Assembly: GCF_009914755.1 (NCBI RefSeq)
Contig: NC_060947.1
Strand: one strand, 5' to 3'
Length of the DNA: 64,000 nt
DNA from: the human T2T-CHM13v2.0 reference genome, Homo sapiens
Part shown: one piece after another, positions 1 through 22,789 of the stretch
Numbering within the stretch: position 1 is the stretch's first letter
How the letters are laid out: every line of letters begins with the position of its first letter
Position numbers and translations under genes: made by a program
Notes under the pieces: model-generated
Database searches by the model: none
What the model was told of the DNA's origin: nothing
What the model saw: the letters and a program-made list of their open reading frames with translations, nothing else

Positions 1-1015
1 GGACTCCAGTCCCCATGACTTGTAGTCACAGACGACCACAGACTAGAGCAGCTAAGAGATCCAACAGCTCAGCTTTACAAAATGAAGAGGGTCATCTTCT
101 TTGAGCAGTTCAGCCTCTCCATTGTGGGTGTAGTAGGCCACATTTTGAACTATTTCCATCTGTTATTGATTATATATCAGGCTTCAGGATGGCTGGGAGG
201 ATACTCTGCCTTTACAAGCTGAGTCAATGCCCTTTCTAATGTCTTCTGCTCATGCTGTGGTCAAAGGCACCCTATAAAACTTATTTGTGTGTATGCTACA
301 TAGCTCAAGGAATACTCCCAGGGTCCTCCTCTATCCTCTTTTTAACAAAAACAACTAACATTCATAGATAACTTACTAAGTGCTAGACACTATACAAAGC
401 ATTTTATAGAGATTACCATATTTAATCTTCACAAGCACCCTGTGATCTATGGGATCTTTTTAATCTCTATTTTTATAGATGAGGAAATTGTGGAATAAAA
501 AGTTTAGCAGTTCATCCAAACTGTCAGCTAAATAAGTGGCTGAGGCAGAATTCAAACCAGGTTTAAATAACTCGCTCAAGGCAACTCAACTTGTATATAA
601 TGGAATCAAGTTGTAACCAGGCCCTTTCAAGCTTTTAAGTAATTTTGCCACTTTCTGCTCTGTTGCCTGGATTATAAATTCTCTTGCTCTACCCAGCCCA
701 TTTGGACTGGCATTTAGATTTAATTGTTTGACTGGCTTTGGTTTCAGTTTCTCCCCAGAATTTTGCCTTTTGGATTGCCCGCCTCTGTTCCACACCCCGC
801 AGGCTGCAGTCCAGCTCTGCCCTATCTCTTCACCAATGGAAGTTTTAGTGATAGTATACTCCAGTCTAAAACCAATGTCTTAGAGCTCCAACTGTCTGGG
901 AGGAGAAATTCAACATTATCTCAGAAAAAAAACTTGACTAAGGGAGAGATATGGAGGCAGACCCACCCTGGTAGATTCTGCAGGAGACCTTCTGGGTTAT
1001 ATGGTCCCAAGTAAA
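1..1015 (-). mobile_element. Possible further Gypsy/sushi-like pol fragment (tail of copy B or a third copy)
   Basis: Minus-strand translations: LGPY (~1000-1011), VLDWSILSLKLPL (~835-875), QKTLE (~234-248), KCGLLHPQW (119-145), SKKMTLFI (81-104). Short degenerate motifs, interrupted by a MIR. Confidence 0.35.
350..562 (-). mobile_element. MIR SINE
   Basis: Matches the reverse complement of the MIR core (tttaatcttcacaa...tttatagatgaggaaa...gaattcaaaccagg). Confidence 0.8.
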
Positions 1016-1234: not shown

Positions 1235-1996
1235 CAATTAGCAGATACAATCCAAAGCAGGCTGCAAATGGATGCCTACTTGTAGCAGCACTTGGATGAG
1301 ATCCAGGCCCATGCAGTGAGAGCTCTGAAAGGCCGAGAATGTCAGAGTTGCCTACAATATGAGAGTGGATTCTCATATTTCCCAGCTGGAAAGGCTCAAA
1401 CACAAGTAATTCTCTTGTGCTATGATCCCACCGTGCTGGCCACTGTGATTCATTCAAGTCAAAACCTTGAACATGGTCTTTTTAGCAGTGGCTCCATCTC
1501 TGATACAACATCTCTAATGAGTCATCATTTATGATAGCTGCTTCCAAGTCATGGAGTAAACAAGTAGATCCAAGAGCCTTCCATATCCACTTCAGATTAC
1601 TGAACACCTGAGGAATACCATCTCACAGTGAACTATTTCTAGTATATTCCCTTTTAATGACCCCACACATTCCTGGCAGTGGCAGATGTCTTGAAAAAAA
1701 TGTATCATTCATTGTATACTCAGCCTATCTACTCCAACTGTGGTTATTTTGTTTATCAAAAGAATCTTCTGGTACCAAATTATCCGCCTATGTGATTTCT
1801 GATTATTACCTGCAATTATCATTCTGATTTTAAAGGGCACTGTTCAAGGCCCTTCACATTAGTATCCATTTGTCAACTTCCTACCACTAGTAGACACAAA
1901 GGTCAGATTGGAGATATCAACCAAGTACTCACTTGAGGAGTAAATCTCCTATTTCACCTTTTACTAATAACACACTGGTTTCCTCTCCTTACTATA

Positions 1997-2977
1997 CAGA
2001 TGTTCCTCACCTTATGATGGGGTTGCTTCCGATAAAACCATTGTAAATTGAAAATATCTTACGTCAAAAATGTATTTAATACACGTAATCTACTAAATAT
2101 CATAGCTTAGCCATGCCTACCTTTTTTTCTTTCTTTAAAAAAGGATCTGGCCCCGTCACTCAGACTGGAGTGCAGTGGTGTGATCTCGGTTCACTGCAGC
2201 CTTGACCTCCCGGGTTCAAGCAATCCTCCTGCCTCAGCCCCTCCGGATAGCTGGGACTACAAGTGTACACCACCAAGCTTGACTAATTTTTTTTTTGTAG
2301 AGATGATTTTGCCGTGTTGCCAAGGCTGGTCTCAAACTCCTGGGCTCAAGCAATCTGCCTGCCTCAGCCTCCCAAAGTGCTTGGATTACAGGCATGATCC
2401 ACTGTGCCCAGCTAACTTGTCTACCTTAAACTTGCTCAAACACTTACACTAGCCTACAGTTGTGCAAAGTAATCTAACACAAAACCTATTTTATAATAAA
2501 GTATTGAATATCTTATGTAATATATTGAATACTGTACTGAAAGTGAAAAACAGAGTATTTGTGTGGGTACTCACCATTAATGTACACAGCTGAAAGCACA
2601 CTGAACCTGTAGAATGTTTGAAGCATTGAACTAAAATTAATTGATGAATGATGGGGATACTACAGTGACAGGGTCATCAATTTCTCTGTCTTCTGATGAG
2701 GCTTGAGAATAGCTAGTATTGATGGTTTAGCAGGCATAGTGTTCTTCAGGAAAATATCAAATATCAGTTGTTTACCTTTGTGACTGCATGAATGACTAGG
2801 AGCTGCAGCTCGCTGCTGCTGCTGGCAGAACCACAAGACAGTATTGTACGGCACATCACTAGTCCAGGAAAATATCAAAATTAAAAACTCAAAGTACAGT
2901 TTCCTCTGATGCGTATTACTTTCGCATCACCATAAAGTAAAAATATCGTTAAACCATCCTAAGTCAGAAACCATCTG
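1997..2977 (+). mobile_element. Tigger5/MER47-family DNA transposon (TcMar-Tigger)
   Basis: Termini CAGATG...CATCTG with a TA on each side (1995-96, 2978-79); body matches MER47 (cctacagttg.gcaaa..atctaacacaaa.cctattttataataaag). Confidence 0.9.
2122..2412 (-). mobile_element. AluJ inserted in the Tigger5/MER47
   Basis: Dimeric antisense Alu with J-type gggctcaagcaatc; flanking ctacctt repeat. Confidence 0.9.
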
Positions 2978-4418
2978 TAACTGATTCCTCCCTCAATTTA
3001 TCTCATTCATCAGCCAGAAAGACTTATTTTTATGGTAATTATGGCTTCCACATCCACTGCTTTCCACACTCTCCCATGCAATGTTGGACATAAGGAGTTG
3101 TAGGCTACCAGAATGCTGAAGGTCATAACACGTGAAGTATACTGAATAATCCTGGGTCCTTGAGAAGAACATCAGCATGGGAGACAATCATATATACATG
3201 CATGCACACACATAAACACCATCATATGGAGCACTTCAAGGCAATGAATGTTATCAACACCATGGGTTTCTGACTCCAGCTAACTCCTCTATGTCAATCC
3301 ACCCCATCTGCCACCAATCTTTGCTATATCTGACCTACCAATATTTCTCCACCGTATCAATAGCTAAGTCTTCAGATTCTAGGAAAGCAAGGTTAAGGAC
3401 CGAAGATGGTTGGGAAGTGTGCGATGAGCAGCAGTGTCCAGCTACATCTTCCTATATGCTAATCTATGGAGGTGATCTTGAGGCTCATAGGTCCCCCAAT
3501 CAGAAACAACCATTGGTAGTTGTTGTTTACATGGTGGGGGTTACAAATTGAACCCAGTAGGTGACTGGGTTCCCTTGACCAGAGTTTGGCCTACCAAGCT
3601 GCTTAAGGCTCCTGAATCTATCCTGTCCTCAAGTGAGAGACAAAATGCACTGGCTCCCCTATGACAAGTTAGGCTACCAAATATATTTCTCAGATTAGTT
3701 AAGAGACCAAGTAGTTTATTAACATGCAAGAGACATAAGCCTCACTAACCCATGTCTCTAGGCATTTGGGAGACAAGAAAGACCAATAAAAGAATCTTTC
3801 TTTGGTTCCATGGTGAAAGATAGTTGAATATCTTTATATATAGCAGCATACGGGGCCCAAAGCTGAATCTCTATCAAGCTAGAACATATGCCAGCACAGT
3901 GACCATAACTTCATCCTAGTAGCTGATAGATCGCTATGCCCAAGGAGAAAGTTGCCCTCTAAAATACTGTCTGATGCCTTTCCAATAATGTAAGGATAGG
4001 AAGGAGGGTAGCCCAGATAGTCCCACAAGTCAGGGATGGGAAACAGGATGGGCTTCTTTCTGCAGTCCTTGGTCACAGAACTTGAAGGAAGAAATAGTAA
4101 AATTGTGTCCAGAGGAAAAATCTCTCTAAAGTGGGTAGTCATGCAAGACAATCTTAGGACAGCAATAGAAGTTGAGGGCAGTGCCATATGGGGAGAAACA
4201 GGAGTGGCAAGAATGGCCAGAGGAATATCACTGAGTAGGTCAGAGTGAATAAACAAAATAGGTGGTGTCTGAATGAACACCAAAAGCAGGGGCCCAGTGA
4301 AAGAGGCTAGTGTTATACCTGTTCCAGGTATTACTTGCATGAATGGGCCAAGTCCAGTCAATGGGGCAGAATAAATACTAAACTTAGAGTTTAAATAAAT
4401 AAATAATAAATAAATGTG

Positions 4419-13450: not shown

Positions 13451-13560
13451 TATGTATATACATATACATATATATATATACTGCTTGATTGAGATATAAT
13501 GTATATAACATACAATTCACACATTTAAAAAGTGCAAGTAAATCGTTTTTAGTATATTCA

Positions 13561-13688
13561 TAGGAAATGAGGTTTCAGAAGGTTAAGTGGCTTACACCAG
13601 ATCACACCTAATAAAGGAGAGACCTGAGATTCAAGCGTCTGCTGTCTGGCTCCAAAGGCCATTCCCTTAATCACTATGCTGTGCTGCC
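13561..13688 (-). mobile_element. MIR fragment
   Basis: gaggtttcagaaggttaagtggctt...gtctggctccaaag...cttaatcactatgct. Confidence 0.75.
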
Positions 13689-14395
13689 AATTGCAATGGC
13701 TTTCTGGTAAGGGTATTCTCTACAACAAAAAGAGTGTTGTGATTATGAAACAGGGAGTAGATTTGTGATCAATCCATAGCAATGGTGTCAAGGGTGTGTT
13801 CGAGGATTGGTAATGGGTATATTAATCTGTTGATCCTTGTAGATCTATTCTTGATTAGAGTACAAGTGCTCCAAGTGCTTGTATACTAAGTGTCATTGTG
13901 ACAGATATGGGGCCACCATAAGTCCCTGCATTCTTTGTTCAAGGTTTTGAATAGGCCACTGTAGCTGAGTCAATGCTCCTACCAGGACATAATGCCTTTG
14001 TATAGTTAGCATTGGCCTTTCTATCTCCCTTACATTAGAATATTCTGGACCCTTAGCCAGTGTTCCAGCATAGAGGCATTTGCCTGCTGTCCATTTCCCT
14101 TTCCTCAGTCAGGTGCACCTGACCTTAATGACAGTAAAGCTCACAGGCCAGAGGACCTCTTGGGGTGAAGCCCTGGCTGCATCCAGACTTAAATAATTGG
14201 GCATCTTCTCAATGAGACACAGTGGATGTGAAAATTCTACCTTTACTAGAACAGTGCCATTTCATCTGGCAAAACTGAGCTTCTAGCTTTGCTTCAACAG
14301 TAAGATGATGCACAGGTTGTGCTATACCATTATAGGTACAGAAACCCTCATGCTTCAAAGATAGCCTTGATTGCCGGCAGTTCCTGTTCCTACAC

Positions 14396-14819
14396 TGATA
14401 TACTTTGGATGTTTGTCCCCTCTAAACCTTATGTTGAAATGTAAGCCCCAATGTTGGAGGTGTAGCCTGGTGGGAGGTGTTTGGACATGGGGTTGGATCG
14501 CTCATGAATGTCTTGGTTCTGTCCTCGCAATAATGAGTAAGTTTTCTCTCTGAATTCATGTGAGATCTGGTTGTTTAAAAGAGTGTAACACCTCCCCCGC
14601 CCCTCACTCTTGCCCCTGCTTTCAATATGTGATATGCCAGCTCCCTCTTTGCCTTCCATCATGATTGAAAGCTTCCTGAGGCCTCACCAGAAGATGAGCC
14701 AATGCCAGCATCATGCTTCCTGTGCAGCCTGCAGAATCGTGAGCCAATTAAACCTCATTTCTTTATAAATTACCCAGTATCACATATTCCTTTAGAGCAA
14801 TGCAAAACAGACTAACACA
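14396..14819 (+). mobile_element. MSTB-like solo LTR (ERVL-MaLR)
   Basis: TGATATA.TTTGGATGTTTGTCCCC...GACTAACACA, 424 bp, TG...CA ends; decayed TSD tacac/tatat. Confidence 0.9.
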
Positions 14820-15814
14820 TATATTGAGTAATTCACCTCAACCTCCGTTGGGGCCATTTTCCCAGAAAGGGAGGCACATGGGTAGGAATGCCTGGGCCGT
14901 GGTCTCCTTCTATTAGGGTCACTTCTACCTCAATATTGGAGGTGTTAGTTTAAATATGTAAGGCTGAATTGGCTCAGGTTAAGTCAGGATCAGGGCAGAA
15001 AGTTTTCTTCACTACCTTATTGAGGTATAACTGATATAAAATATAATGCACAAGCTTCAAATAATTACCATTTATTTCTTTTCTGTAATTTTTCTTTTTT
15101 TTTCAGTCTCACATCACTGGTTGGAATCTCCAGCATAATGCTGAACAGGACTTGTGATAGCAGATATCTTTGTCATGTTTCTTATCTTAAAGGAAATAAT
15201 AGTTTCAGTATTTCCCCAGTAAGTATGATGTCTGCTGTAGTTACTGATATGATGCTCTTTATCAGTTATAAGAAAGCCCCTTCTACTCCTAGGTAGCTAA
15301 GAGGCTGTTTGTTGAAATCATAAATTAATGTTAGATATTATTGAATATGTCTCCCGTATTATTAAGATGATTGTGAGTTTTTGCTTTTTTTCTTTAACCT
15401 GGTAATATGATGAGTTATGTTACTTAATTCTCCAAAATAACCTTGTTATCCTGGAATAAACCCAACTTGGTAAATATTCATTATCTTTTTATACATTGCT
15501 GAACTTACTTTGCAAATGTTTTGTTTACAATTTTTACATCTATAATCATGAGTGAGTCTGACTTGTAATATCCCTTTCCTATATAATACTGGTCAGGTTT
15601 GTTACCAAAATAACCTGGGGAGTGTTACTAATATCCTTTTCTCTGGAAGAGTTTAGCTAATATTGGAACAATATTTTCATTGAATTGTCAGAAGAACTAG
15701 CTTCTCAAGTACAGCAGACTTGGTATTTTCTTTGTGGGAGTAATTTTAAGTATTGACTCATTTTTTTCCTTTATGGTTAGAAGACTTTTTGAATTCTCTA
15801 TTCTTAAGTTACTG

Positions 15815-16200
15815 TTAGTAAATTTCATCTTTTCTAAGAATATATCCAATTTTAAGTCCAAGTTTTCAAATGTATTGACATACAGTTTTTCGTATTATCT
15901 TTTTAATCCTTGCAGCATCTGTAATTATTTCCTACTTTTTATTCCAAAATGTATATTTATGCTACCTATCTTTTTTTCCCTTGATTGACCCTTGCTAGAA
16001 ATTTTCCTTTAGCAAATTTCATTTTTTCAAAGACTGTGTCCAATTTTAAGTCCAGGTTTTCAAATGTATTGACATAGAGTTTTGCATATTATCTTTTTAA
16101 TCTTTGCAGCATGTGTAATTGTTTCCCACTTTTTATTCCAAAATGTGTATTTGTTCTATATGTCTTTTTTCCCTTGATTGACCCTGCTAGAAGTTTTTCT
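15815..16200. repeat. Diverged tandem duplication, 194-bp period
   Basis: ccaattttaagtcca.gttttcaaatgtattgacata at 15846 and 16040; cccttgattgaccc in both units. Confidence 0.9.
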
Positions 16201-16917
16201 ATTTTATTAGTTATTTCAAAGAAACAACTCTTGACTTAGTTGATGTTATTATATATTTGTTTTATATTTCATTCACATGTATTCATATCTTTATTATTTC
16301 CCCCCTCTGCTTTCTTGAGGATTATTCTGATATTCATTCTCTAATTTATCAAATCAAATGTTTGGCTAATTAATTCTGAGCCTTCCTTCTAGTGTGAAAG
16401 CTTTTAAGTCTATTCATTTCCCCCTTAATATCACTTTGGCTAATCCCATGAGTTTTGATATGTAGAATTTTAATTATCTTTCAGTTCTAAGTATTCAGTT
16501 CCAAATCTAGTTTTCATTATGATTTTTCACCTGTAAATTTTATAATATTGTTTTACGTTGCCATAAATGGAATTTTTGTAGTCATATTTTTAGACTGATT
16601 TATAAGTTAATTGTAATTAGAAAAGTTGGTGTGATATGTTACCAATCTTTGAAATTTGTTTAAACTAACTTTAAACAATGATTACATATGTTCCAGATGT
16701 GCTTGAAAATAATGTATATTCTCTGATTGTTTGCTGGAATTGTCTATATATGTCTGTTATCCTAGCTTGTTAATTATGCTGTTCAAATCTTTTATATCTT
16801 TAACAATATTTTTCTGCTTGATTTATCAGTTATTAAGAAAGATGTATTAAAATCTCCCACTGTGATATAGAGTTTACTAATTCCTCCTTGTTGATTTGTC
16901 AAATTTTGTTAAAAAAT

Positions 16918-17259
16918 TGTTTTGAGAGTCTTCAGCTAAATTGGGGTTCCAGTGCCACAGTGGCTAGCAGCCCTGCTCCAACGGGAAATGAAGAAGAGCT
17001 GGACATGGGTATTTACAGTGTGTCTTTCAGGGGATACTTCTTTAACCTCGTGGAAGACCTAATGCCTAGTTGTTCAACCTGTGAACAGGGCATCCCTCAC
17101 AGAGAAACTTGTTTATACTGGCAGATGCCCCTGTGGCTCTTGTCTGACCTGTGTTCAGTTTATGCCTGCCTGACCATCACTTTGGTGCTGGGAGCACAAC
17201 CTTGTGTTCCCCCAGGAATCCCAGGGAAAACTCACCCAGGGGTTGATTCCGAGGCAACA
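16918..17259. mobile_element. ERVL-class solo LTR (LTR32/LTR42-like)
   Basis: TG...CA ends, 342 bp GC-richer insert in L1; aacttgtttatactggcagatgccc...gctcttgtctgacctgtg motif recalled from this LTR group. Confidence 0.65.
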
Positions 17260-17531
17260 TAAAATTATAAGTATTCATTATAATATGTTAAAATTGCTAT
17301 ATTTTGCTGGTTAATTTATTTTTTCCATTATGAAATGACTCTATTTATCTCTTGTAATCCTTTCACCCTAAATTTTAAAATCCGATATTAAAATAGCGAC
17401 TTCAGCTTTCTTTTGGTTAGTTTTTGCCTAGTAGTAATTTTTTTGGTTCTTTGACATTCAGTCTTTCTGTATCCTTACATTGAAATATAAATGAAGATAT
17501 TTATCTTATGAACACTATACAACTGAATGTT

Positions 17532-20241
<2,710 letters not shown>

Positions 20242-21687
20242 ATGTTGTTCTTTTATTCACTCTGATAATCCTTGATATTTTAATTGATGTATTTAATCCA
20301 TTTAGATTTACAGCAATTACTAATCTGTTTGGATTTATTCCTACCCTCTTCATATGTGCCTTTTATTTGTTCTATTTTCTGTTTAATTTTCCTACTCTTA
20401 TTTTCTTGACTTATTTTGAATTAAGCTTTTTTCCATTTTTTTAATTCAATTTTTCCCTCTACTTATTTCAAAGTTACATATTTTATGTCTATGCTTTTGT
20501 TGATTACTCTTGCTATTTTAACATGAATACTTTAAAAAGTCTAAAATTAATTGTTTTCCATTTTCTTCATAATTTAACTTTCAAAGGGACCACTCATACC
20601 ACTCACACTCACCATGTATCACCTCCAACATAGAAATCTGAAAGCCATGGGTTATGTAGCAGTCTTTCCACAAGGCTTCAACTTTTCCTAGTTTTGCAAA
20701 GAGATGTGTGCGTAAAAATTATAACCCCATTTCGTAGATCAAAAAATTGGGTCCTGAAACAATCAAATGACTTGTCTGTAAAATTAAGTCATCTAATCAA
20801 GAAGGGAAATCAGGGCTTCAAATTATTTTTCCAACTGTGAAATTCAGGAGATTGCCTGGGGAAACTTTTTTTCCACATTTATTTTATTTTTTTGTTGCAA
20901 TTTTGATATACATTGACACCTAGTTCTCCAGGAAAGTTATACTAATTTACACAGAGAAATACTTGGAGTCCATGATCAATAGAATTCTGAGTTCTTTCCT
21001 TCCAATACTTAGAGAACAGGAACCATGTCTTTTTTCACATTTGTATTATGGAACATTTCAAACATATACAGAAGTAAAGAGAGTAGTTAATAAATCTCGT
21101 GAGAATTTTCTAATCCCAAATAACTGTCAACTGCTTAGACAGAAAACATGAAGATAAAACAAAGCAAAGCAAACTTAAATAGAGTTGGGTTTTTAATTTT
21201 ATTTTTTAAAGATCAGATTATTTTAAATCATTTCTGTGTTTTGAGATTACAATAAAGCCTTAATTAGTAGGACTCTAATAAACTGGAAACTTTCACTGAC
21301 TAGATTCTTTTTTGGTTCTCTCTGTTTTGAGAAAAGGTTTATTATAATCTACTCATAACAGGGATTTATTCTAAAATTTAAGATTCAATGAGTGATCTAG
21401 ACTCTGTCCACCCTCAGTTTACTCTCATATCTCTAGTATTATTTCCAGTTTTAGGTGCTTAGCATAACAAAGACCATTCTTCATGTTAATCTTGCTTAAA
21501 GTGGCCTCAGGATGAAGCTACTAGGAAAAAAAATAACTTGTGAGGAGAAAGCCAAAAGAAGCAAAAAGAGGACTGCACCTTCCTTCCTCACTTCTATTCT
21601 TGTTTTCATGCCATTCCTATATACCTGAAAAAATGTTTCAAATATCAGTTTCTAAGCAATTGCTCCTAGTTTTCTTCTTGGCTGTTG

Positions 21688-21830
21688 GAGTATCACAGTG
21701 TGGTGGAAAAAGCTCTGTGCTTGGAATTCAAGTCATGGCTCTCTTCTTTGAGCTATGTGCTCTTGGGAAAGTCACTTAACTTTTCTGAGCCTTTATTCAA
21801 TCACTTACTAAACAAAGGGGTTGAGCTGGA
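21688..21830 (+). mobile_element. MIR fragment
   Basis: ctatgtgctcttgggaaagtcacttaacttttctgagcc. Confidence 0.65.
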
Positions 21831-22789
21831 GTAACTAATGCCTCTTAGTGTTCTCCATTTCTGTTGTGTCATGAATTAGAATTCCCAAAGTCTGGTTTTA
21901 TTCATGGAGAGTCTCATACCAAATATGATTTGAAGGCACTCAAAGCATTTCTATCACCCACAGTGCCTGAACTTTTATCATTAGTGATCCATTCATTTTG
22001 CTGGGTTTAGCATTGTCTCCTCCTGTTAGTCTTTCTTTTGAGAAGAAAAGCATGTAAAGGCACTTCTTTGTGAATGCATTACTCACATGGCCCTTTCCCT
22101 GGCTTAGAAAGTAGAGATTTTGATGTCTAGAGGTTGGAAGTGGGAAGAAAAGGGTGAAACACAGAGAGACTAGAAGGGTATCAGAGACAGATTTCACCTC
22201 CTTCATAATTTTTCTGCAGCTTGGCTCTGAGCATTGTTATGACTCAACCTCCTCTGTTCTTGGCAAGGCTCAAACAAGACAAGGTACTATTTGGTAGCAG
22301 ATTGGAACAGGGAGTCCCTGGCTGAGTATCAAATTCAGGTATTTTTGATAGATTCTGAATGGAGTTCTTTATTAGGTCTTTTGATCAACAGGAATGTGTT
22401 TAGAAGAGCCAAAGCACCTCTCTAAGTAAAACATGTACATTGTTGCAGAACCATTAACAGGCATATCCTCCCATTCAATCACAGTAGCCATGATTGGCAA
22501 GAATCTGGGTCATAATCCATCACCCAATCTTAAGTGTCCTCTCTTCATCATCCTCTTCTGGTCCCGTTCTCTTCTAAGTTCCATGTTGGTCCTCAATATT
22601 GTAGAGAATCTCTCATTTTTACTTGTGTATCATGCCTATTTCCTGACACCAACACTTTATCTCTCCTATCCCAGAGAAAAGCAATCTCTTCCTCTGCATT
22701 CCCTCAATGTTGGGACACTATTGGTAATAAATCATTTCTGCCTTTAATGGAGAAAGATTCATTAATGAAGTTGTTTTTTTCTCTAATAA

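What the first reader, a model, noticed from the sequence alone, without database searches (positions are those of the whole stretch)
13690..22130. Hidden near-complete sushi-ichi/RTL-like Gypsy gag-pol fossil, split by younger insertions
Seen in sequence: after removing the MSTB, L1, LTR and MIR inserts, the remaining minus-strand pieces give domains in Gypsy order. These are a Gag knuckle with exact CX2CX4HX4C spacing (codons TAC/AGC/TTC, each one base from Cys TGC), protease-like IKVQAL, RT-like ELR/SIDHGL..YNFP, RNase H and integrase (KTL..WWP..Y..C, PLPI....IAMD, NTLFVV). The RNase H frame PCASLSGKMAPTEVEVNYS|V*EQELPAIKAIFEA* reads straight across the MSTB target site, with stops at conserved Trp positions. 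Established knowledge: PCAFxSRKL..ERNY..ELLAIK.A..W is the sushi/chromovirus RNase H signature, the lineage that gave PEG10, RTL1 and the X-linked RTL genes. Inference: this is either an old MamGypsy-type insertion or a dead domesticated RTL-like gene.
Basis: partly seen in the sequence, partly recalled or inferred. Interest (0 to 1): 0.8.

Follow-up and report, generated by a model that had tools for sequence, protein, structure and literature searches.

The report
Short ancient Gypsy retrotransposon relic
Only about 1.3 kb of the claimed 8.4 kb is a real, fully decayed piece of an ancient Gypsy-type retrotransposon (part of RNase H plus the start of integrase); the rest is other repeats or unassignable DNA, so this is ordinary genomic debris, not a hidden gene.

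Summary
Partly confirmed, ordinary. On the minus strand, 13,703-13,960 encodes the N-terminal part of a Ty3/Gypsy integrase. The best solved-structure match is the Ty3 Gag-Pol polyprotein (E 5.3e-5). It scores 31 bits against a Gypsy profile I built and hits 118 of 122 Gypsy proteins, against at most 20 bits on 30 human integrase-bearing loci, mostly taken to be endogenous retroviruses. Just upstream, the RNase H reading across the MaLR LTR (14,816-14,887 and 14,180-14,398) is colinear and modestly supported (2 of 6,000 position controls reach its score).

Nothing supports gag, protease or RT at 20,575-22,130. The "Gag knuckle" pattern occurs 81 times in the window, and the cited one has no cysteine.

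The L1 is not a removable insert. It maps to ORF2 residues 2-683 and stops at 15,098, so a 3'-truncated L1 abuts a 5'-truncated Gypsy piece. There is no special likeness to RTL1, no gag, and stops are not depleted (17 in 235 codons).

A second, longer Gypsy pol fossil (RT, integrase) lies on the plus strand from about -655 to 3,341. Whether Dfam annotates either copy, and whether they are conserved in other mammals, could not be tested.

The parts
13703..13960 (-). Copy A: Ty3/Gypsy integrase N-terminal part (zinc-binding HHCC region through the first segment of the catalytic core), 2 stops in 86 codons
   Evidence: Ty3 Gag-Pol 7q5b_A E 5.3e-5. 4 Gypsy proteins by tblastn, E 6.4e-9 to 7e-4, all other hits E>=0.15. 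31-32 bits on my own profile, positions 31-117. 118 of 122 Gypsy proteins hit, median 38 bits, against at most 20 bits on 30 human integrase-bearing loci. Pfam Integrase_H2C2 only E 0.26.
14180..14395 (-). Copy A: RNase H, part downstream of the MaLR LTR (EL.AIK motif and beyond), same frame as the integrase; heavily decayed
   Evidence: Profile positions 73-87 at 14,354-14,398, -1.2 bits alone. Colinear with the upstream piece; X-read-through 6.9 bits, 2 of 6,000 controls reach it. Alignment to the best Gypsy protein runs on to the ..F...NF.I motif.
14396..14819 (+). Solo MaLR (MST/THE1-like) LTR inserted into the RNase H, flanked by TACAC/TATAT (3 of 5 alike)
   Evidence: Sequence read. 62-78% repeat families shared with the two LTRs at 17.5 and 19.8 kb. 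74% over 427 bp to another LTR left of the window. The family name is recalled, not tested.
14816..14887 (-). Copy A: RNase H piece upstream of the LTR (..PCA.LS.K....E.NY)
   Evidence: Profile positions 55-77, 4.3 bits, rank 5 among window loci. Joint test. No alignment at all to L1 ORF2.
13570..13687 (-). Sequence abutting the integrase fragment; looks like the 5' part of a MIR by recalled consensus only
   Evidence: Read. Not supported by tools: no other copy found in the window, and the genome hits fall on 13,456-13,569 instead.
15098..20574 (-). Old L1, 5'-truncated in the ORF1 tail and 3'-truncated at ORF2 residue 683; carries nested inserts
   Evidence: Colinear tblastn of an uninterrupted 1,275-aa ORF2: residues 2-27 at 20,344-20,267 through to 556-683 at 15,490-15,098, nothing further. 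PDB L1 ORF2p E 2.1e-7. 26 of 39 non-self genome hits fall on 20,260-20,574. DNA homology to other copies ends at 15,063 or higher. Translated homology to 7 L1 loci ends at 15,024 or higher.
17552..20250 (+). Full-length MaLR element nested in the L1 (LTRs about 17,552-17,960 and 19,842-20,250, roughly 82% alike) with an Alu at about 18,150-18,490
   Evidence: Repeat families D1, D5, D6, D8 and Alu families D2, D4, D7.
20575..22130 (-). Claimed gag knuckle / protease / RT region: no Gypsy signal. Contains a short multi-copy element at 21,025-21,101 and a MIR-like stretch near 21,700-21,830 (recalled)
   Evidence: Best RT 0.4, PR -0.2, RH 1.2 bits. 0 of 45 tiles above the controls. Knuckle pattern at chance. 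L1 ORF1 finds nothing here. 12 of 39 genome hits fall on 21,025-21,101.
1783..1902 (+). Copy B (second fossil): Gypsy integrase catalytic-core segment
   Evidence: 10-17 bits, second best of the window on the integrase profile. 48 of 122 Gypsy proteins at >=25 bits, against at most 2 in 100 shuffles. No PDB or Pfam hit.
2995..3341 (+). Copy B: integrase C-terminal motifs (2,995-3,057 and 3,285-3,341), colinear with the core segment
   Evidence: 8.4 and 3.8 bits. 37 of 122 proteins at >=25 bits, against at most 1 in 100 shuffles, for 2,950-3,099.
1..123 (+). Copy B: weak RNase H match (starts at -41, left of the window). Its position fits the spacing from the RT at -655..-388
   Evidence: 5.5 bits, top of the RNase H list in the extended region; -1.6 bits in whole-frame mode. 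Not supported by blastp: 0 of 122 at >=25 bits.

Best explanation
The real feature (copy A, about 13,703-14,887, minus strand) is a dead, neutrally decaying fragment of the pol gene of an ancient Ty3/Gypsy LTR retrotransposon. It holds the C-terminal half of RNase H followed, in the same frame and in the Gypsy order, by the zinc-binding N-terminus and first core segment of the integrase.

Shown:
- A MaLR solo LTR later inserted into the RNase H.
- At its 5' side the fragment abuts an old L1 that is itself cut off inside ORF2.
- At its 3' side the integrase stops after the first core segment.

Inferred: both ends are therefore products of deletion or rearrangement, not of simple nested insertion, and no gag, protease or RT of this copy survives nearby. 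The fragment does nothing today: it has no open frame, no depletion of stops and no gag.

A second, independent and longer Gypsy pol fossil (copy B: RT, weak RNase H, integrase) lies on the opposite strand from about -655 to 3,341. Both belong to the known class of ancient Gypsy relics of mammalian genomes. Membership of a particular Dfam/Repbase family is inferred, not tested.
For: Integrase:
- The Ty3 Gag-Pol polyprotein is the best PDB match, E 5.3e-5.
- 4 of 7 library hits are Gypsy/chromovirus integrases.
- It is the only significant tblastn hit of 4 Gypsy proteins in 64 kb.
- 31 bits on my own profile of 120 Gypsy Pol proteins, top of 8,502 chunks.
- 118 of 122 Gypsy proteins hit, against at most 20 bits for 30 human integrase-bearing loci.

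RNase H:
- The two pieces are colinear, in one frame, directly upstream of the integrase.
- 2 of 6,000 position controls reach the read-through score.
- 1 of 60 shuffles reaches it.
- There is no alignment to L1 ORF2.

Decay: 17 stops in 235 codons against 5.9% expected; the longest stop-free run is 84 aa.

L1 truncation: ORF2 residues 2-683 only; homology to other L1 copies stops at 15,024-15,098.

No gag/PR/RT.

Copy B: four colinear pieces each exceed all 100 shuffles; RT 13-19 bits.

Known class: the Repbase review lists MamGyp-int, MamGypLTR1-3, LTR85/88/104 and X1-X4_LR as Gypsy traces in human (passages of PMC5753468).
Against: - Pfam gave no Gypsy family at its own thresholds. The best was Integrase_H2C2 at E 0.26, 11.9 bits, against a cut-off of 25.5.
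- The RNase H support is modest and rests on a reading frame chosen after the fact.
- No paralogous copy of copy A was found in the genome by protein or DNA search: self hit only, plus 2 hits at E>1. Membership of a multi-copy family is therefore not shown.
- No LTRs were identified for either copy.
- Copy B has no PDB or Pfam support and rests on my own profile and on blastp against the same 122 proteins.
- Neutral decay in other species was not tested.
Confidence: 0.85

Rival explanations
1. One reading: one near-complete Gypsy gag-pol fossil on the minus strand from 22,130 to 13,690, merely interrupted by younger MSTB, L1, LTR and MIR insertions that can be excised to restore gag-PR-RT-RH-IN.
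For: The RNase H and integrase parts are real and in Gypsy order. The MaLR LTR is a true insertion that keeps the frame.
Against: - No RT, PR or RH signal at 20,200-22,300: best 0.4, -0.2 and 1.2 bits, where the integrase of the same copy gives 31.
- 0 of 45 blastp tiles stand above the controls.
- The knuckle pattern is at chance: 81 in the window, and 0 cysteines in the cited one.
- No Retrotrans_gag match.
- The L1 ends at ORF2 residue 683 without a 3' end or tail, so it is not an excisable insert.
- 20,260-20,574 is L1.
Confidence: 0.04
2. A dead, once-domesticated RTL/SIRH-like gene: a sushi-ichi-derived gene that was under selection and later lost.
For: The locus lies on Xq23. A 1,389-codon open frame with a Retrotrans_gag match lies about 0.47 Mb proximal (I take it to be RTL9 by recall). 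The first RNase H piece shares 7 of 14 residues with RTL1 at the homologous position, E 0.033 against RTL1 alone.
Against: - No gag in the window.
- The RTL1 ORF finds nothing in the interval.
- RTL1 ranks 81 of 121, and 50 of 500 shuffles reach its score.
- Stops are not depleted.
- What survives is RNase H and integrase, which to my recollection the known RTL genes (apart from RTL1's RNase H) do not retain.
- No annotated gene or transcript covers it (hub annotation).
Confidence: 0.04
3. Copies A and B are two parts of one ancient element, torn apart by inversion or transposition within the 17 kb. A's strong parts (RH 55-87, IN 31-117) and B's strong parts (RT, IN 147 onward) are nearly complementary.
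For: - The strong matches are complementary: A ends at integrase profile position 117 and B's strong match starts at 147, on opposite strands.
- Both ends of A are breakpoints rather than insertion boundaries.
- Two pol-bearing Gypsy relics within 12 kb would be unusual for a rare class. This is an inference; density was not measured.
Against: - B has its own weak but correctly spaced matches for RH 81-136 (at -41..123, where the spacing from its RT predicts it) and for IN 62-141 (1,536-1,769, abutting IN 147 at 1,783). B therefore seems to hold the parts that A also holds.
- A single inversion cannot produce the present order.
- Apart from MaLR LTRs and Alus, the two neighbourhoods share no sequence.
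Confidence: 0.1
4. The integrase-like stretch comes from an endogenous retrovirus, or the RNase H-like stretch is the continuation of the adjacent L1 ORF2, rather than from a Gypsy element.
For: - ERV integrases are far commoner in this genome: the best 150 scored of 990 Integrase_H2C2 candidates all exceed the cut-off, and none is in the window.
- The L1 lies on the same strand directly upstream.
Against: - Against 30 human integrase-bearing loci the best score is 20 bits (E 1.6), with 6 of 30 giving any hit. Against 122 Gypsy proteins the median is 38 bits, with 118 hitting.
- No retroviral integrase in the PDB reached E<=10, while Ty3 did.
- The RNase H read-through gives no reportable alignment to ORF2, and ORF2 maps no further than 15,098.
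- 7 L1 loci show no translated homology below 15,024.
Confidence: 0.02

Closest known systems
Ancient mammalian Gypsy relics catalogued in Repbase/Dfam (MamGyp-int with MamGypLTR1-3; LTR85/88/104; X1-X4_LR; MamGypsy2)
   Same: Heavily decayed Ty3/Gypsy internal sequence in the human genome, older than MaLR LTR activity and without open frames. The class is described in the Repbase review (passages of PMC5753468). MamGyp-int is named as the source of PNMA2 (passage of bioRxiv 10.1101/2023.02.09.527862).
   Different: Membership of any one of these families was not tested, because no Dfam or Repbase consensus is available to the tools. No paralogue of copy A was found in the genome. Whether RepeatMasker already annotates these two copies is unknown to me.
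RTL1 (sushi-ichi-derived domesticated gene; 1,358-codon open frame found on contig C14 of this genome)
   Same: Ty3/Gypsy origin. RTL1 keeps RT and RNase H domains that my profiles recognise (142 and 83 bits). The first RNase H piece of copy A aligns at the homologous RTL1 position with 7 of 14 identities.
   Different: RTL1 is an intact gene with gag. Copy A has no gag, no open frame and an integrase start. My integrase profile gives only 5.8 bits on RTL1. There is no significant overall similarity.
Yeast Ty3 integrase (PDB 7q5b, Ty3 Gag-Pol polyprotein)
   Same: Best solved relative: residues 1104-1195 (zinc-binding region to the start of the catalytic core) align with 13,703-13,960, E 5.3e-5.
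   Different: Ty3 is an active element. Here only about 85 codons of the integrase survive, with 2 stops, and the rest of the core is missing from this strand.
NYNRIN and ERV integrases of the human genome (Integrase_H2C2-bearing loci)
   Same: They carry the same Pfam zinc-binding integrase domain.
   Different: Copy A shows no significant similarity to them: best 20 bits, E 1.6. The names NYNRIN and ERV for those loci are recalled from their positions, not given by a tool.

Membership tests
Ty3/Gypsy (Metaviridae) LTR retrotransposon, pol | Integrase with an N-terminal HHCC zinc-binding region and a DDE core, of Gypsy rather than retroviral type | tested here: met
   N-terminal region and first core segment only. 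The rest of the core is absent on this strand.
Ty3/Gypsy (Metaviridae) LTR retrotransposon, pol | Domain order RT - RNase H - integrase on one strand | tested here: inconclusive
   RNase H lies upstream of the integrase in the same frame, with modest support. No RT for copy A. Copy B shows RT, then weak RH, then IN in order.
Ty3/Gypsy (Metaviridae) LTR retrotransposon, pol | Reverse transcriptase and aspartic protease domains | tested here: not met
   Copy A: best RT 0.4 bits and best PR -0.2 bits at 20,200-22,300/22,600; 0 of 45 tiles. The fragment is therefore a piece of such an element, not a near-complete one.
Ty3/Gypsy (Metaviridae) LTR retrotransposon, pol | Gag with capsid domain and CCHC knuckle | tested here: not met
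   No Retrotrans_gag match in the window: 7 of 7 genome candidates lie elsewhere. The knuckle pattern is at chance and the cited one has no cysteine. Pfam tiles gave no zf-CCHC.
Ty3/Gypsy (Metaviridae) LTR retrotransposon, pol | Flanking long terminal repeats and target-site duplication | tested here: inconclusive
   The only direct repeats found at 9-27 kb are MaLR LTRs, Alus and an L1-internal duplication. Old LTR pairs below about 65% identity would be missed.
RTL/SIRH (sushi-ichi-derived domesticated genes) | Intact gag-like open reading frame | tested here: not met
   plus the hub annotation (no gene).
RTL/SIRH (sushi-ichi-derived domesticated genes) | Closer to RTL1/sushi-type Pol than to other Gypsy lineages | tested here: not met
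   RTL1 ranks 81 of 121; 50 of 500 shuffles reach its score; RTL1 tblastn finds nothing. Sushi-ichi itself was not available.
RTL/SIRH (sushi-ichi-derived domesticated genes) | Conserved at an orthologous position under purifying selection in eutherians | not testable with these tools
   No other mammalian genome is held.
Dfam/Repbase MamGyp-int, MamGypsy2-I, X*_LR | Significant nucleotide or translated match to the family consensus | not testable with these tools
   No Dfam/Repbase library is available. The families are known to me only from passages in PMC5753468 and from search listings.
L1 ORF2 (as the source of the RNase H-like strings) | Colinear continuation of ORF2 beyond residue 683 | tested here: not met

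The most novel reading that the evidence does not exclude
The two (possibly three) Gypsy pol relics within about 17-27 kb, in opposite orientations just upstream of a PAK3 promoter and 0.47 Mb from a large gag-derived gene, are not independent debris. Instead they are the torn remains of one ancient Gypsy-derived locus, either a rearranged single element or the discarded pol part of a once-domesticated X-linked Gypsy gene, whose break-up could be dated in outgroup genomes.
Probability: 0.06. Interest if true: 0.4.

Novelty: new member of a known kind. Interest (0 to 1): 0.14.

Why it matters
It matters little in itself. Ancient Gypsy relics are a catalogued, if rare, component of mammalian genomes, and this one shows no sign of function.

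The useful results are negative and methodological:
- By-eye motif chains ("one base from Cys", short protease- or RT-like strings) produced a gag-pol model that statistics do not bear out.
- The adjacent L1 is truncated at the junction, so "excise the inserts and read through" is not valid here.
- Pfam's speed filters hid both the true integrase and the L1 ORF2, which an unfiltered custom profile found.

The second fossil and the double truncation of copy A would be of modest interest for reconstructing old rearrangements upstream of PAK3.

Tried and rejected
- Pfam on whole frames and on 81 tiles of 300 aa: no retroelement family. 9 tiles gave 10 unrelated weak rows (E 0.037-4.2). The scan also missed the L1 ORF2 later shown, so I did not take it as evidence of absence.
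- Genome-wide Pfam family searches (Integrase_H2C2, RT_RNaseH, RT_RNaseH_2): only the best 150 of 990, 1,513 and 2,250 candidates are scored, mostly ERVs. The window is not among them, which is uninformative for a weak relic.
- Paralogue search with copy A as protein and as DNA: self hit only, plus two hits at E 1.13 and 2.33.
- tblastx of the chr15 Gypsy RNase H relics against the window: swamped by Alu and L1. Their translations against the extended region gave only low-complexity hits.
- Copy A against copy B by blastn and tblastx: nothing significant (best E 0.036 for 15 nt, 0.11 for 20 aa). An inverted duplication is rejected.
- A single-inversion model joining A's integrase start to B's integrase core: considered, then set aside after searches showed that B has its own correctly spaced weak matches.
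- Adding a candidate RNase H N-terminus (14,901-15,044) to the read-through: no gain.
- PDB searches for the L1 ORF2 start (50 aa) and for copy B's RT and core: no hit. Searches were in the wrong frame and were repeated in the right frame as 46 and 47.
- L1 ORF1 against the window: no match at 20.4-21.5 kb, so the L1 does not extend far beyond 20,574.
- A MIR label for 13,570-13,687: no tool support. It is kept only as a recalled resemblance.
- Literature: searches for 'MamGypsy2' (3 papers, listing only), 'MamGyp-int' (7 papers) and sushi-ichi/RTL/pseudogene/eutherian (65 papers, listing). Passages of PMC11011659 hold no mention of PAK3, MamGyp or chrX. I found no description of this locus in those searches. 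Supplements were not consulted.

Full report
WHAT WAS CLAIMED. The parts would be a Gag knuckle, protease, RT, RNase H and integrase. It would be either an old MamGypsy insertion or a dead domesticated RTL-like gene.

THE INTEGRASE START IS REAL. I read the region and translated the minus strand with stops as X.
- The frame containing the quoted integrase strings (13,691-14,395) was compared with all PDB sequences. The best of 5 hits at E<=10 is the Ty3 Gag-Pol polyprotein (7q5b_A, E 5.3e-5), residues 1104-1195, which run from the zinc-binding region to the start of the catalytic core. The other four hits are prolactin receptor chains at E 0.011-0.026.
- An unfiltered HMMER search of 1.84 billion representative proteins gave 7 hits at E<=0.001. 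Four carry Integrase_H2C2 with rve and/or RT and RNase H (two of these also carry a chromodomain) and match the same query stretch. Three are unrelated bacterial-type proteins that match another, X-rich part of the query.
- These four Gypsy proteins, run by tblastn against the whole window, hit only 13,703-13,975 significantly (E 6.4e-9 to 7e-4). Every other hit has E>=0.15.
- I built a profile from 120 Gypsy/chromovirus Pol proteins and domain sub-profiles, and searched without filters. 13,703-13,957 is the best of 8,502 translated chunks (31.3 bits, profile positions 32-116). The third-best locus scores 7.3.
- The piece hits 118 of 122 Gypsy proteins (median 38 bits, maximum 52). Against 30 human loci that carry Integrase_H2C2 it reaches at most 20 bits, with 6 of 30 giving any hit. 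By their positions I take these loci to be NYNRIN and ERVs.
It is therefore of the Gypsy type, not the retroviral type.

THE RNASE H READING IS PLAUSIBLE BUT ONLY MODESTLY SUPPORTED. The two pieces flanking the MaLR LTR lie in one frame and are colinear on the RNase H sub-profile. These are 14,813-14,887 (positions 55-77, 4.3 bits) and 14,354-14,398 (positions 73-87, -1.2 bits). Alone, the better one ranks only fifth in the window.
- The LTR (14,396-14,819, 424 bp) with its 5-bp duplication (TACAC/TATAT) adds 429 = 3 x 143 bases, so the frame is kept (limits agree).
- Read through with X at the break, the pair scores 6.9 bits. 2 of 6,000 constructs of the same geometry, taken at random places in 84 kb, reach that. 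Against 120 Gypsy proteins, 1 of 60 shuffles reaches its maximum or its median score.
- The obvious rival is that these strings continue the L1 ORF2 lying directly upstream on the same strand. That was tested and rejected. An uninterrupted 1,275-aa ORF2 maps colinearly from 20,344 down to 15,098 (residues 2-683) and no further, and it gives no reportable alignment to the read-through. Seven other L1 loci show no translated homology below 15,024.
- A candidate RNase H N-terminus at 14,901-15,044 adds nothing.

THE REST OF THE MODEL FAILS.
- On the minus strand of 20,200-22,300 (to 22,600 for PR) the best RT, PR and RH sub-profile scores are 0.4, -0.2 and 1.2 bits.
- By blastp against 122 Gypsy proteins, 0 of 45 tiles of 20,575-22,300 have five or more subjects at 25 bits. 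Two control regions of 81 tiles each gave 1 and 0 such tiles. The copy A region gave 2 of 36, both of them the integrase.
- The 'Gag knuckle' is a C-x2-C-x4-H-x4-C spacing in which each Cys may be any codon one base from Cys. Sixteen codons qualify. The pattern occurs 81 times in the window, and the cited instance (starting at 22,113) has no cysteine at all.
- A genome-wide Retrotrans_gag search scored all 7 candidates, and none is in the window.
- Part of the claimed region is other repeats. 20,260-20,574 is the L1's ORF1 tail and ORF2 start (26 of 39 non-self genome hits). 21,025-21,101 is a short multi-copy element (12 of 39 hits).

THE ANATOMY IS NOT 'A FOSSIL PLUS INSERTS'. The L1 (15,098-20,574, minus strand) carries a nested full-length MaLR element (LTRs at about 17,552-17,960 and 19,842-20,250, with an Alu inside). 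It is 5'-truncated as usual but also ends inside ORF2, at residue 683, without a 3' end or tail. A 3'-truncated L1 thus abuts a 5'-truncated Gypsy RNase H. On the other side the integrase stops after its first core segment at about 13,700, next to what I recall as the 5' end of a MIR (no tool support). I infer that deletion or rearrangement made both ends of copy A.

NO SIGN OF A FORMER GENE, AND NO SPECIFIC RTL/SUSHI AFFINITY.
- The Gypsy frame of 13,691-14,395 has 17 stops in 235 codons. That compares with 5.9% expected from base composition, and with 8 and 9 stops in the other two frames. The longest stop-free run on this strand of 13,691-15,097 is 84 aa.
- The 1,358-aa open frame that I take to be RTL1, whose RT and RNase H my profiles recognise at 142 and 83 bits, finds nothing in the interval.
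- Its RNase H does align with the first piece of copy A at the homologous position (7 of 14 identities, E 0.033 against RTL1 alone). Over the whole read-through, however, RTL1 ranks 81 of 121 proteins, and 50 of 500 shuffles reach its score.
- Sushi-ichi itself was not available.

A SECOND FOSSIL. The unfiltered profile also showed a colinear series on the plus strand. With 20 kb fetched to the left of the window, it extends outside the window.

| Part of copy B | Window coordinates | Profile score | Gypsy proteins at >=25 bits (of 122) | Most in any of 100 shuffles |
|---|---|---|---|---|
| RT around the catalytic box | -655..-488 | 13-19 bits | 93 | 3 |
| RT, next segment | -495..-388 | 5.5 bits | 32 | 0 |
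| Integrase core | 1,783-1,902 | 10-17 bits | 48 | 2 |
| Integrase C-terminal motifs | 2,995-3,057 | 8.4 bits | 37 | 1 |
| Integrase C-terminal motif | 3,285-3,341 | 3.8 bits | 0 (best 24.3 bits; shuffle maximum 22.3) | 0 |

Scores are; counts are. Weak matches for RNase H (-41..123) and the integrase N-terminus (1,536-1,769) sit exactly where the spacing predicts, but blastp does not support the RNase H one (0 of 122). PDB and Pfam give nothing for copy B.

Copies A and B share no detectable DNA or translated similarity. Their surroundings share only MaLR LTRs and Alus. I therefore read them as two separate relics. A single-element rearrangement model remains possible at about 10%.

COMPARISON WITH WHAT IS KNOWN.
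- Traces of Gypsy elements in the human genome are catalogued in Repbase: MamGyp-int with MamGypLTR1-3, LTR85/88/104 and X1-X4_LR (passages of PMC5753468).
- MamGyp-int is cited as the source of PNMA2 (passage of 10.1101/2023.02.09.527862).
- A T2T-based survey of metaviral capsid genes does not mention PAK3, MamGyp or chrX in its main text (PMC11011659, passages; supplements not read).

VERDICT. This is an ordinary ancient Gypsy pol fragment, much shorter than claimed, with no evidence of function or of an RTL-like past. Interest is low.

Noticed in passing
window 1-123, 1,536-1,902, 2,995-3,341 (+), and left of the window at G000:C23:109,367,345-109,367,612: A second, longer Gypsy pol fossil on the plus strand: RT, weak RNase H, integrase core and C-terminal motifs, all colinear. 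It straddles the window's left edge and shows no similarity to the minus-strand copy.
   Followed up: yes
window 15,024-15,098: Junction of an L1 cut off at ORF2 residue 683 with a Gypsy RNase H that lacks its upstream domains. Both elements are truncated there, so it is a deletion or rearrangement breakpoint rather than an insertion boundary.
   Followed up: partly
window 15,806-15,979 and 16,000-16,173: Tandem duplication of 174 nt (86% identity, 194-nt spacing) inside the old L1 ORF2.
   Followed up: no
window 13,456-13,569: Multi-copy element just beyond the MIR-like stretch, followed by TA-rich simple sequence. 39 other genomic loci match at 76-87% identity. Possibly the 3' end of another LINE; family not determined.
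   Followed up: no
window 21,025-21,101: Short interspersed element of about 65-75 nt, 78-94% identical to 12 other loci. Family not determined.
   Followed up: no
L060 6,600-6,842 and L061 4,246-4,449 (G000:C15, about 69.12 and 69.18 Mb): Two Gypsy RNase H relics 58 kb apart on chromosome 15. One is unusually well kept (Pfam RT_RNaseH 94 bits despite 5 stops; 51 bits on my profile), with no other pol domain beside it.
   Followed up: partly
left of the window, about -10,877..-11,092 and -12,354..-12,518 (minus strand; L068/L069): A weak, colinear pair of integrase-profile matches (7.0 and 6.4 bits, positions 29-94 and 118-169). Scores are at noise level. It could be a third relic or chance.
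   Followed up: no
G000:C23:108,902,203-108,902,364: The nearest Retrotrans_gag match is a 1,389-codon open frame about 0.47 Mb proximal to the window. I take it to be RTL9 by recall.
   Followed up: no
method, window-wide: Pfam hmmscan at E<=10 reported neither the Gypsy integrase in 300-aa tiles nor the L1 ORF2. Both were plain with PDB phmmer or an unfiltered custom profile. Negative Pfam scans of decayed translated DNA should not be read as absence.
   Followed up: yes
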